32,359 nt of DNA from Candidatus Omnitrophota bacterium (GTDB lineage: Bacteria; Omnitrophota; Gorgyraeia; JABMRN01; RBG-13-46-9). The stretch spans positions 1-32,359 of the forward strand of contig JADHYL010000001.1 of NCBI GenBank assembly GCA_016782495.1, written 5' to 3'. Below, piece by piece: positions 1,872 through 2,198 of this stretch. Position numbers and translations under genes: made by a program. Each line of letters starts with the position of its first letter. Within the stretch, counting starts at the first letter, position 1. The notes beneath the pieces are model-generated. The model had not been told where the DNA came from. It did not search any database and was given only the letters and a program-made list of their open reading frames with translations.

Positions 1872-2198
1872 TGGGGAGAGGAGGATTCGCACCTCCGTAG
1901 GCCAAAGGCCGCCAGATTTCAAGTGCCCTCAGGTTTCCTTGAGGCTTGGACTATCTCATCACCTTAGCTTCTTATCGCCTTAGGCGGTGGGCGCTTAGTC
2001 TCTGCACCTTCCCCACCCTTTTGAGAGATTGATCATTCCTCTTGGTAATCTCTCAAAAGGGTGGGGCTTGGCTCAGGATTACCTTAGGTTATTACCCCTT
2101 TAGGCTTCCCTGAGTTCACCCACTTTTACATCTCTCCTTTCGAAAAGACGCTGCGTTCTTACACAGTCTGGTCCGTTTGACTACTCCGGCATCTCCCC
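1872..2198 (-). tRNA. tyrU: tRNA-Tyr (anticodon GTA), class II, interrupted by a group I intron between positions 35 and 36
   Basis: Exon 1 is 2198..2163: GGGGAGATGCCGGAGTAGTCAAACGGACCAGACTGT. Exon 2 is 1919..1872: AAATCTGGCGGCCTTTGGCCTACGGAGGTGCGAATCCTCCTCTCCCCA. Joined, they give an 84-nt tRNA with a 7-bp acceptor (GGGGAGA/TCTCCCC), a 3-bp D-stem, anticodon stem CCAGA/TCTGG, loop CTGTAAA, long variable arm GGCC-TTT-GGCC and a T-arm. Position in the operon matches tyrU. Confidence 0.85.
1920..2162 (-). ncRNA. Group I intron (IC3-like, ORF-less, 243 nt) in the tRNA-Tyr anticodon loop
   Basis: The 5' exon ends in U and the intron ends in G (..GCACTTG). Recognisable pairings: P3 GTGGGTG/CGCCCAC, P4 CTCAGG/CCTGAG followed by CCAAGCC, P7 GACTA/TAGTC within GGTGCAGAGACTAAGCG...GATAGTCC, P8 CGCC-TAA-GGCG, P9 CCTCA-AGGAAACC-TGAGG. 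CCTAAG receptor-like motifs occur in P5 and P8, with GAAA-containing L2 and L9, as in the Azoarcus tRNA-Ile intron (compared from memory). Confidence 0.85.

What the first reader, a model, noticed from the sequence alone, without database searches (positions are those of the whole stretch)
1872..2198. tRNA-Tyr(GUA) gene split by a self-splicing-type group I intron between anticodon positions 35 and 36
Seen directly: a 36-nt 5' exon (2198..2163) and a 48-nt 3' exon (1919..1872) join into a complete class II tRNA-Tyr with anticodon loop CU-GUA-AA. The 243 nt between them follow group I rules. The exon ends in U, so a U-G pair is possible with an internal guide (GAC..UGU / GCA-gc-GUC), and the intron ends in G. 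The intron carries an Azoarcus/Anabaena-like IC3 core: P3 GTGGGTG/CGCCCAC, P4 CTCAGG/CCTGAG + CCAAGCC, GGTGCAGAGACTAAGCG with P7 GACTA/TAGTC, P8 CGCC-TAA-GGCG, P9 with a GAAA-containing loop, and CCTAAG receptor motifs. The bacterial tRNA group I introns I know of sit in Leu(UAA), fMet, Ile(CAU) and Arg(CCU). I am not aware of a characterised tRNA-Tyr case, so this may be an undescribed insertion site. It also lies in the tRNA operon that feeds tuf.
Basis: partly seen in the sequence, partly recalled or inferred. Interest (0 to 1): 0.8.

Follow-up and report, generated by a model that had tools for sequence, protein, structure and literature searches.

The report
Group I intron in tRNA-Tyr gene
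A self-splicing-type (group I) intron really does split the tyrosine tRNA gene here, but this intron type and insertion site were catalogued in 2020 and are common in Omnitrophota and candidate-phyla-radiation bacteria, so it is an ordinary new member of a known class.

Summary
Window 1872-2198 (- strand) is a class II tRNA-Tyr(GUA) gene split by a 243-nt group I intron (1920-2162) between U35 and A36. Rfam Intron_gpI scores 97.1 bits (cut-off 50). The joined exons give a canonical tRNA-Tyr, and U(-1) and omega-G are in place.

One capped scan of species-representative genomes returned 86 further tRNA-Tyr genes split at the same junction. They come mostly from Omnitrophota and Patescibacteria. 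Across the 87 sequences P1-P9 are supported by covariation: 85.9% of cells pair against 32-50% when the partners are slid, and 38 of 56 pairs show double changes.

The novelty claim fails. K. P. Williams' 2020 bioRxiv survey already lists a "Tyr.4Ug" class at this position, and its seed Mba143 reads the same as my locus L097 in the alignment.

The less expected features lie beside the intron. An unannotated ~200-aa gene family fills the tRNA-Thr to tRNA-Tyr spacer in about half of the related loci and is absent or decayed in the others. It occurs with and without the intron. The tRNA also shows an A18/G55 covariation. Splicing itself remains untested.

The parts
2163..2198 (-). tRNA-Tyr(GUA) 5' exon (positions 1-35, ends ...CAGACUGU)
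   Evidence: ARAGORN on the precursor and on the joined exons. The same exon end CAGACTGT occurs in 86 of 87 aligned loci; L149 has CGGACTGT.
1920..2162 (-). Group I intron, 243 nt, with no ORF inside; IC3-like core
   Evidence: Rfam RF00028 at 97.1 bits; covariation over 87 homologues.
1872..1919 (-). tRNA-Tyr 3' exon (A36 to discriminator A73). CCA is not encoded. The T-loop is UGCGAAU (G55).
2151..2166 (-). P1: exon CUGU plus intron G (2166-2162) pairs with the internal guide CGCAG (2155-2151). U35 pairs with G at the 5' splice site. The loop is UAAGAA.
   Evidence: The four pairs C-G, U-A, G-C and U-G are invariant in 87 sequences, and the fifth pair covaries (AU 26, GC 22, CG 18, GU 11).
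2130..2149 (-). P2 (GUCUUUUC/GGAGAGAU) with a GAAA L2 tetraloop (2141-2138)
   Evidence: All 8 pairs show double compensatory changes; 96.1% of cells are paired.
2117..2123 (-). P3 5' strand GUGGGUG (pairs with 1987-1993)
   Evidence: In intron type A (42 sequences), UA/CG and GC/AU covariation at two positions and 41-42 of 42 paired at every position.
2072..2114 (-). P4 (CUCAGG 2114-2109 / CCUGAG 2077-2072) enclosing P5 (2104-2102 / 2084-2082) with a CCUAA..UAAGG receptor-like motif
   Evidence: Five of six P4 pairs and P5 covary between the two intron types. The single-sequence minimum-energy fold recovers them.
2007..2071 (-). P6 (CC/GG) and a 20-bp perfect P6a hairpin (2066-2047 / 2030-2011), the longest among the relatives
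   Evidence: The outer P6a pairs covary; minimum-energy fold. P6a is a variable region in alignment A1.
1996..2000 (-). P7 5' strand GACUA within GCAGAGACUA (J6/7-P7)
   Evidence: Rfam alignment. Its invariance among relatives was forced by my search pattern.
1987..1993 (-). P3 3' strand CGCCCAC
1960..1986 (-). P8: CGCCU (1986-1982) / AGGUG (1964-1960), with a CCUAAG..UAAGG receptor-like motif
Evidence: Covariation within type A: CG/UA, AU/GU/GC, CG/UA.
1949..1953 (-). P7 3' strand UAGUC within GAUGAGAUAGUCC (J8/7-P7)
   Evidence: Its invariance was forced by the search pattern.
1927..1944 (-). P9 (CCUCAAG/CCUGAGG, with one A-C mismatch) and a GAAA L9 tetraloop (1937-1934)
   Evidence: Six of seven pairs covary; 96.9% of cells are paired.
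1920..1920 (-). Omega-G, the last intron nucleotide
   Evidence: Its invariance in alignment A1 was forced by the search pattern.
2181..2801 (-). ORF1, not part of the intron: about 202-206 aa, N-terminal HTH plus a domain of unknown fold. It fills the tRNA-Thr(UGU) to tRNA-Tyr spacer, and its stop codon lies 15 nt inside the tRNA-Tyr gene.

Best explanation
What it is. A tRNA-Tyr(GUA) gene, probably of an Omnitrophota bacterium, interrupted between U35 and A36 by an ORF-less IC3-type group I intron. The intron belongs to a lineage that is widespread in Omnitrophota tRNA-Tyr genes (my 'type A'). It also belongs to the catalogued 'Tyr.4Ug' class.

Inferred mechanism.
1. In the precursor, anticodon-loop nucleotides C32-U35 plus the first intron base pair with the guide CGCAG to form P1. 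U35 pairs with G at the cleavage site.
2. The anticodon stem (CCAGA/UCUGG) stays paired and holds the 3' exon close. This is what the Anabaena pre-tRNA-Leu intron requires, and it stands in for P10.
3. P3-P8 and P4-P6 pack around P7. The GAAA loops L2 and L9 probably dock into the CCUAAG..UAAGG motifs of P8 and P5.
4. An exogenous guanosine attacks after U35. Omega-G (1920) then occupies the G site, and the freed U35 3'-OH attacks before A36.
5. The product is a mature class II tRNA-Tyr with anticodon loop CU-GUA-AA.

Shown here: the exons, intron boundaries, family membership and base-paired architecture, with covariation. Inferred: catalysis, independence from proteins, and that this is the cell's working tRNA-Tyr.
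For: - RF00028 matches over the full model at 97.1 bits against a cut-off of 50.
- The joined exons fold as tRNA-Tyr with G1-C72, A73 and a long variable arm.
- The U-G wobble pair at the 5' splice site is present in all 87 homologues and was not fixed by the search pattern; the terminal G is also present in all 87, but the pattern required it.
- My P1-P9 structure on 87 sequences gives 85.9% of cells paired against 31.8-49.6% when slid. Of 56 pairs, 38 show double changes, and 0 of 500 shuffles reach the observed values.
- Within the 42 type A sequences, 96.9% of cells pair against 35-46% when slid.
- RNAalifold independently finds P1, P2, P4, P5, P7, P9 and the anticodon stem.
- The single-sequence minimum-energy fold recovers P2, P3, P4, P5, P6a, P8 and P9.
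- The closest loci, L075 and L116, have the same gene order and Intron_gpI hits of 96.7 and 82.5 bits.
- The odd tRNA features A18 and G55 covary in eight independent sequences, so the tRNA is under selection.
- No other tRNA-Tyr lies in the 32-kb window.
- ORF1 homologues and L075 are labelled Omnitrophota.
Against: - There are no transcript or splicing data.
- I could read only 32 kb of a contig of about 101 kb, so a second, uninterrupted tRNA-Tyr elsewhere cannot be excluded.
- No P10 pairing is evident.
- P9 has an A-C mismatch, and the receptor motifs are UAAGG rather than the canonical UAUGG.
- G55 in the T-loop is unusual.
- The 3' flank of the tRNA is rearranged and CCA is not encoded.
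- The invariance of P7, part of J8/7, omega-G and the start of the 3' exon among relatives was imposed by my search pattern and is not independent evidence.
Confidence: 0.85

Rival explanations
1. The split gene is a redundant or decaying copy. A second, uninterrupted tRNA-Tyr elsewhere in the genome does the work, and the intron need not splice.
For: I could read only 32 kb of the roughly 101-kb contig. The tRNA has an unusual G55, CCA is not encoded, and the 3' flank is rearranged relative to L075 and L116.
Against: - The gene sits in the conserved Thr-Tyr-Gly-Thr-tuf position, which is where relatives keep their tRNA-Tyr.
- The tRNA cloverleaf is intact and the intron helices keep pairing through compensatory changes across 87 genomes.
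- A18/G55 is a coordinated change seen in eight sequences, not random decay.
Confidence: 0.07
2. Splicing depends on a protein. The adjacent ORF1 (2181-2801) acts as a maturase-like cofactor, co-transcribed with the pre-tRNA.
For: ORF1 abuts and overlaps the 5' end of the split gene. It has a nucleic-acid-binding HTH. Homologues precede the intron-bearing tRNA-Tyr in 43 of 79 loci.
Against: - 36 of 79 intron-bearing loci lack the ORF.
- In 43 of the 80 best metagenome loci, the ORF precedes an uninterrupted tRNA-Tyr, and in about 7 it precedes a tRNA-Thr.
- A paralogue in this window precedes the intron-less tRNA-Thr(GGU).

Presence of the ORF and presence of the intron are therefore independent.
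Confidence: 0.05
3. The intron and ORF1 form one composite mobile unit by collaborative homing. ORF1 would be a free-standing homing endonuclease that cuts intron-less tRNA-Tyr alleles at the intron insertion site, and repair would copy both elements.
For: - ORF1 is an optional gene with a decay series.
- The ORFs most similar to ours almost all sit next to type A introns.
- The N-terminal HTH resembles those of phage HNH and homing endonucleases.
- There are weak structural hits to LAGLIDADG, endonuclease and intein proteins.
- The concept is documented for phage psbA (PMC3984707).
Against: - Most ORF-bearing loci overall have an uninterrupted tRNA-Tyr, which such an enzyme should cut.
- No nuclease family is recognised by Pfam, by a PDB sequence profile or by Foldseek against the PDB.
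- No cleavage data exist.
Confidence: 0.1

Closest known systems
'Tyr.4Ug' class of bacterial tRNA group I introns (K. P. Williams, bioRxiv 2020, doi 10.1101/2020.01.27.920355; seed Mba143.Tyr.4Ug)
   Same: Same isoacceptor and the same insertion point (CUGU|...g|AAA, after the fourth anticodon-loop nucleotide). Both have U(-1) and omega-G, the same P1 (CUGU/GCAG), a P2 with a GNRA-type loop, and no ORF.
   Different: The seed reads the same as L097 (Magasanikbacteria) in alignment A1 and represents my type B core (GUAGAGACUAGAUACC, GAUAACGGUG). The window intron is type A (GCAGAGACUAAGCGCC, AAYUCAGGG), found mainly in Omnitrophota. The two types differ throughout P3-P8. The preprint's counts per class are in an image that I could not read.
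Cyanobacterial and plastid tRNA-Leu(UAA) IC3 intron (Anabaena; seed Sel1.Leu.3Ug)
   Same: Near-identical core strings: AACUCAGGGAA, AAUCCUGAGCCAAGC and AAGGUGCAGAGACUA (read). The domain plan P1-P2/P3-P8/P4-P6/P7-P9 is the same, and both sit in the anticodon loop. Self-splicing of the Anabaena intron needs the anticodon stem (Zaug et al. 1993, as cited in PMC3984707).
   Different: The host is tRNA-Leu with insertion after U34. P9 carries extra helices in the tRNA-Leu introns. Splicing is experimentally proven there and untested here.
Azoarcus tRNA-Ile(CAU) IC3 intron
   Same: A small ORF-less IC3 ribozyme with GAAA L2 and L9 loops and CCUAAG..UAUGG receptors in P8 and P5 (seed Aol6.Ile2.5Ug; the receptor roles are from my own knowledge).
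   Different: Insertion is after position 36. It has a short P6. The window's receptors read UAAGG and its P6a is 20 bp.
Free-standing homing endonuclease genes next to conserved genes (F-CphI beside cyanophage psbA; T4 SegB within the tRNA cluster)
   Same: ORF1 and ORF2 are optional genes wedged between conserved tRNA genes. They have DNA-binding HTH modules and decayed copies in relatives (concepts from PMC3984707 and PMC2330249).
   Different: No GIY-YIG, HNH or LAGLIDADG domain is detected, and the fold has no PDB match. Endonuclease activity is purely conjectural.

Membership tests
Group I intron (Rfam RF00028) | Covariance-model score above the curated gathering threshold | tested here: met
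   97.1 bits against 50, E = 4e-24, model positions 1-253.
Group I intron (Rfam RF00028) | Conserved P3-P9 core, including the P3/P7 pseudoknot, maintained by base pairing | tested here: met
   56 pairs on 87 sequences: 85.9% paired against 32-50% when slid, 38 pairs with double changes. Type A alone gives 96.9%. P7 itself is uninformative because it was fixed by the search pattern.
Group I intron (Rfam RF00028) | U at -1 forming a U-G wobble with an internal guide sequence in P1 | tested here: met
   U35 (2163) pairs with G (2154). The U-G pair is present in 87 of 87 sequences.
Group I intron (Rfam RF00028) | Terminal guanosine (omega-G) before the 3' splice site | tested here: met
   G at 1920. 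In the relatives it was required by my search pattern.
Group I intron (Rfam RF00028) | Guanosine-initiated self-splicing in vitro or in vivo | not testable with these tools
   No RNA data and no experiment.
Group I intron (Rfam RF00028) | Exon ligation restores a functional host gene | tested here: met
   The joined exons give an 85-nt class II tRNA-Tyr(GUA). This is an in-silico result only.
IC3 subgroup | P2 present; no P2.1 and no P5abc; short P5; L2-P8 and L9-P5 tetraloop-receptor pairs | tested here: inconclusive
   The architecture and motifs are consistent: GAAA in L2 and L9, and CCUAAG..UAAGG in P5 and P8. The core strings match the tRNA-Leu seed. No subgroup classifier was available, and crude pairwise identities (0.60-0.72) do not discriminate.
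Williams 'Tyr.4Ug' tRNA intron class | tRNA-Tyr host, intron after the fourth anticodon-loop nucleotide, U(-1), G(omega) | tested here: met
   CUGU|g...g|AAA in the window. The class is defined.
LAGLIDADG homing endonuclease (considered for ORF1 and ORF2) | Match to the LAGLIDADG sequence models | tested here: not met
   No Pfam hit at E <= 0.01 for either ORF. Only HTH families appear across 38 members. The PDB sequence profile finds only HTH proteins.
LAGLIDADG homing endonuclease (considered for ORF1 and ORF2) | The alpha-beta-beta-alpha-beta-beta-alpha fold | tested here: inconclusive
   The models are confident (pLDDT 92.4 and 92.6), but Foldseek against the PDB gives no hit with E <= 0.001. 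Against the viral library (BFVD) the hits are weak (E 1.8e-3 to 0.3) and include LAGLIDADG, endonuclease and intein proteins.

The most novel reading that the evidence does not exclude
The tRNA-Tyr gene of Omnitrophota and Patescibacteria is a shared landing site for two independent selfish elements. One is the group I intron, inside the anticodon loop. The other is a previously undescribed family of free-standing, HTH-bearing genes of about 200 aa with a C-terminal fold that matches no solved structure. These genes insert precisely between tRNA-Thr(UGU) and the 5' end of tRNA-Tyr, and a paralogue sits in front of tRNA-Thr(GGU). If that family is a new kind of homing nuclease that recognises tRNA genes, loci like this one, where both elements lie side by side, would be natural intermediates on the 'collaborative homing' route by which ORF-less introns acquire endonuclease genes.
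Probability: 0.3. Interest if true: 0.55.

Novelty: new member of a known kind. Interest (0 to 1): 0.3.

Why it matters
For annotation: standard tRNA finders miss this gene. Omnitrophota and CPR genomes will therefore appear to lack tRNA-Tyr unless intron-aware tools are used.

For ribozyme biology: the 87 natural variants with rich covariation form a ready comparative set for a compact ORF-less IC3-like ribozyme. No tRNA-Tyr intron seems to have been tested for splicing.

The intron itself adds no new principle. The neighbouring optional gene family of unknown fold, and the A18/G55 tertiary-pair swap in the tRNA, are the parts that could teach something new.

Tried and rejected
1. The LAGLIDADG reading of ORF1 and ORF2, which I based on the motif LYWAEG...FANSD. 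No LAGLIDADG or other nuclease family is detected by Pfam, NCBIfam or a PDB sequence profile, and PHROGs gives only HTH-region matches plus one weak 'endonuclease' hit (phrog_4645, E 3e-6, for ORF2). Two confident AlphaFold models gave no significant PDB match. Only weak viral-library hits point that way. I kept it as a conjecture only.

2. ORF1 as an intron-specific maturase or an obligate homing partner. Rejected because ORF presence and intron presence are independent.

3. The first viral-contig scan, using the 3'-anchored pattern. It found group I introns in which GAAATCTGG is an internal P9 element, in other tRNAs and not in tRNA-Tyr.

4. Placing the intron nearer to particular Williams seeds by pairwise identity. 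The values were 0.60-0.72 for all seeds, which is uninformative.

5. An exact-protein look-up of ORF1 from its TTG start. It failed because the gene call starts at the downstream ATG.

6. An Rfam E-value search of the 749-nt Tyr-to-Gly spacer. It found only tRNA-Gly.

7. The paper PMC5733544, which claims cyanobacterial tRNA 'group I introns' of 22-49 nt. This is irrelevant to tRNA-Tyr, and the introns are too short to be group I.

Full report
**Observation.** On the minus strand, 2198..2163 reads GGGGAGATGCCGGAGTAGTCAAACGGACCAGACTGT and 1919..1872 reads AAATCTGGCGGCCTTTGGCCTACGGAGGTGCGAATCCTCCTCTCCCCA. Default ARAGORN and the Rfam tRNA model report four tRNAs in the window: Thr-GGU, Gly-UCC, Thr-UGU and Met. 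Neither reports a tRNA-Tyr. With introns allowed, ARAGORN calls tRNA-Tyr(gta) with a 243-nt intron at 'actgt-Intron-aaatc', and the joined exons fold as an 85-nt class II tRNA-Tyr. The junction cannot slide, because the intron starts with G where the 3' exon starts with A, and the exon ends in T where the intron ends in G. The intron therefore lies between U35 and A36. Rfam Intron_gpI matches 1927-2154(-) end to end at 97.1 bits (gathering 50, E = 4e-24).

**Relatives.** I scanned one genome per GTDB species with a 3'-anchored pattern: AGAGACTA, 25-55 nt, ATAGTCC, 10-40 nt, GAAATCYG. For each locus I joined every upstream CTGT to the AAATC that follows the matched G and asked ARAGORN for a tRNA. 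In 86 loci this gave a tRNA-Tyr(GUA) split at the same junction by an intron of 181-237 nt.
- The records are mostly MAGs labelled Omnitrophota or Omnitrophica.
- Many are Patescibacteria lineages: Magasanik-, Moran-, Yanofsky-, Sacchari-, Peri-/Peregrini-, Gracili-, Uhr- and Parcubacteria.
- A few third-party assemblies are labelled Gammaproteobacteria, Planctomycetia or Bdellovibrionales.

This count is a lower bound, and it is biased towards introns that keep my motifs.

**Two intron types.** The alignment of 87 sequences (A1) shows two sharply different cores on the same P1/P2 scaffold.
- Type A has GCAGAGACUAAGCGCC, AAYUCAGGG and AAUCCUGAGCCAAG. It comprises 42 sequences, mainly Omnitrophota, and includes the window.
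- Type B has GUAGAGACUAGAUACC, GAUAACGGUG and AAUACCGUGGGAAC. It comprises 44 sequences, mainly Patescibacteria.

The nearest introns to ours are 70-75% identical. The nearest loci overall are L075 (Omnitrophota JAUWBJ01) and L116. Both share the whole layout Thr(UGU)-ORF-Tyr(intron)-Gly-ORF-Thr(GGU) and have Intron_gpI hits of 96.7 and 82.5 bits. With the Omnitrophota labels on the ORF1 homologues, the window most probably comes from an Omnitrophota bacterium. That is an inference.

**Structure.** RNAalifold on A1 found P1, P2, P4, P5, P7, P9 and the tRNA anticodon stem without guidance. Of its 39 pairs, 23 carry compensatory double changes. I then wrote a full P1-P9 structure from the Rfam alignment and from homology and counted the pairs.
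- 85.9% of 4804 cells are standard pairs, against 31.8-49.6% when the 3' partners are slid by 1-3 columns.
- 38 of 56 pairs have changes on both sides.
- None of 500 shuffles reaches any of the observed measures.
- P3 and P8 look weaker in the pooled set, probably because MAFFT puts type B one column out of register. Within type A, 96.9% of cells pair against 35-46% when slid.
- Within type A there are clear swaps in P2 (all 8 pairs), P3 (UA/CG and GC/AU), P6a, P8 (CG/UA and AU/GU/GC) and P9.
- P7, part of J8/7, omega-G and the first bases of the 3' exon are invariant only because the search pattern fixed them.
- The minimum-energy fold of the window intron alone (-95.7 kcal/mol) also recovers P2, P3, P4, P5, P6a, P8 and P9.

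P1 is CUGU+G (2166-2162) with CGCAG (2155-2151). The proposed GAC/GUC extension is wrong because GUC opens P2, whose pairs covary. P8 is CGCCU/AGGUG (1986-1982 / 1964-1960), not the local hairpin CGCC-UAA-GGCG. The window is unusual only in its 20-bp perfect P6a extension (2066-2011).

**Mechanism (inferred).** The anatomy is that of the small ORF-less tRNA introns.
1. P1 uses the anticodon-loop nucleotides and leaves the anticodon stem free to hold the 3' exon. This is the arrangement on which the Anabaena pre-tRNA-Leu intron depends (Zaug et al. 1993, as cited in PMC3984707).
2. I see no separate P10.
3. L2 and L9 are GAAA. P8 and P5 carry CCUAAG..UAAGG motifs like the 11-nt receptor, which suggests the two tetraloop-receptor clamps known from Azoarcus. 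The receptor roles come from my own knowledge.
4. Guanosine attack after U35 and then attack of U35-OH behind omega-G would give CU-GUA-AA.

None of the chemistry is tested here.

**Is the tRNA a working gene?** It has G1-C72, A73 and a long variable arm. Its D-loop (GAGUAGUC) and T-loop (UGCGAAU) replace the near-universal G18 and U55 with A18 and G55. The same double change occurs in L042, L060, L075, L098, L116, L125 and L130. Every other sequence has G18 with U55. It is therefore a coordinated change and not decay. The gene sits where relatives keep their tRNA-Tyr. I cannot exclude a second copy outside the 32 kb that I can read.

**Comparison with what is known.** K. P. [quoted passage not shown] Its seed alignment contains Mba143.Tyr.4Ug, written CUGU|AA...aug. 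That sequence reads the same as my L097, a Magasanikbacteria MAG, in the alignment. The site is therefore already described, although only computationally and in a preprint. The tRNAscan-SE 2.0 paper mentions only fMet and Ile2 cases, and the 2014 review lists no tRNA-Tyr case. I found no experimental work on a tRNA-Tyr intron. I had no formal subgroup test.

**Neighbouring ORFs.** ORF1 (2181-2801) fills the gap between tRNA-Thr(UGU) and tRNA-Tyr, and its stop codon lies inside the tRNA. A 32%-identical paralogue (233-844) abuts tRNA-Thr(GGU).
- The family has at least 206 members, all named 'hypothetical'.
- Only an N-terminal HTH is recognised by sequence.
- AlphaFold models are confident (pLDDT 92.4 and 92.6), but nothing in the PDB matches at E <= 0.001.
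- The viral library gives only weak hits to LAGLIDADG, endonuclease and intein proteins.
- Among intron-bearing loci, 43 of 79 have the ORF.
- The Thr-to-Tyr spacer is bimodal. It is 8-60 nt in 24 loci, 22 of them without any trace of the ORF (in L039 and L114 the ORF lies upstream of tRNA-Thr). It is about 590-800 nt and filled by the ORF in about 36 loci, with intermediates that hold ORF fragments.
- Among the 80 best metagenomic relatives of the ORF, 43 precede an uninterrupted tRNA-Tyr, 18 precede an intron-split one and about 7 precede a tRNA-Thr.

The ORF is thus an optional element, possibly mobile, that is tied to the tRNA 5' flank and not to the intron. This argues against a maturase role and weakens a strict collaborative-homing model. 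Its function is unknown.

**Verdict.** This is a real, well-supported group I intron in tRNA-Tyr. It is a new member of a catalogued class and a representative of a large Omnitrophota lineage. I rate interest at 0.3.

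Noticed in passing
window 2181-2801 (-) and 233-844 (-); also L034-L146 and L152-L231: An unannotated ~200-aa gene family (N-terminal HTH plus a confidently predicted C-terminal domain with no PDB match) sits exactly between tRNA-Thr(UGU) and tRNA-Tyr. 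A paralogue sits in front of tRNA-Thr(GGU). It is present, absent or decayed among related Omnitrophota and CPR genomes, and its presence is independent of the intron. In the window, the ORF1 stop codon lies inside the tRNA-Tyr gene.
   Followed up: partly
window 1872-2198 (-): D-loop 2186-2176, T-loop 1891-1885; also L042, L060, L075, L098, L116, L125, L130: This tRNA-Tyr has A18 and G55 in place of the near-universal G18 and U55 (D-loop GAGUAG.., T-loop UGCRAAU). The two changes always occur together in eight sequences from Omnitrophota and CPR genomes. This implies a covarying tertiary pair and a T-loop without the usual U55.
   Followed up: partly
window 1123-1871 (-): The tRNA-Tyr to tRNA-Gly spacer is 749 nt here, against 52-75 nt in L075 and L116. 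The sequence just 3' of the window's tRNA-Tyr (CTCTACAAGCTGCGGCTTCGG..., 1871-1834) matches what follows tRNA-Gly in L075. This suggests a deletion or rearrangement between the two tRNA 3' ends. CCA is not encoded in the window but is encoded in L075 and L116. No Rfam family and no Pfam hit for the 94-aa ORF (1240-1524) inside the spacer.
   Followed up: partly
window ~1003-1040 (-), just 3' of tRNA-Gly: A fragment that looks like a tRNA T-arm plus 3' acceptor strand (CGGGAGTTCGATTCTCCTCTCCA) with no 5' half. It may be a recombination or integration scar.
   Followed up: no
window 1230-1202 (-) and 893-866 (-): Two near-consensus sigma-70-type promoter matches (11 of 12, each with an extended -10 TG) lie in front of tRNA-Gly and in front of ORF2/tRNA-Thr(GGU)/tuf. 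The 'tRNA operon feeding tuf' is therefore probably several transcription units.
   Followed up: no
viral contigs L012 (1159-1354, -), and also L006, L011, L025, L027, L030, L032: IMG/VR viral contigs rich in tRNA genes carry tRNA genes split by group-I-like introns. L012 scores 71 bits on Intron_gpI. ARAGORN reads the anticodons as UAA, UCA, UUA, CUU and UUU, and some could be suppressor-like. The 2014 review stated that all phage group I introns known then were in protein-coding genes.
   Followed up: partly
L048 and L065 (both from MAG JAZDFW01): One Omnitrophota MAG holds two different intron-split tRNA-Tyr genes on two contigs, with introns of 222 and 206 nt. Either there are two copies or the bin mixes two strains.
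   Followed up: no
L039 and L114: In these two CPR loci the ORF1 homologue lies upstream of tRNA-Thr(UGU) rather than between Thr and Tyr. This shows a second insertion position for the family.
   Followed up: no
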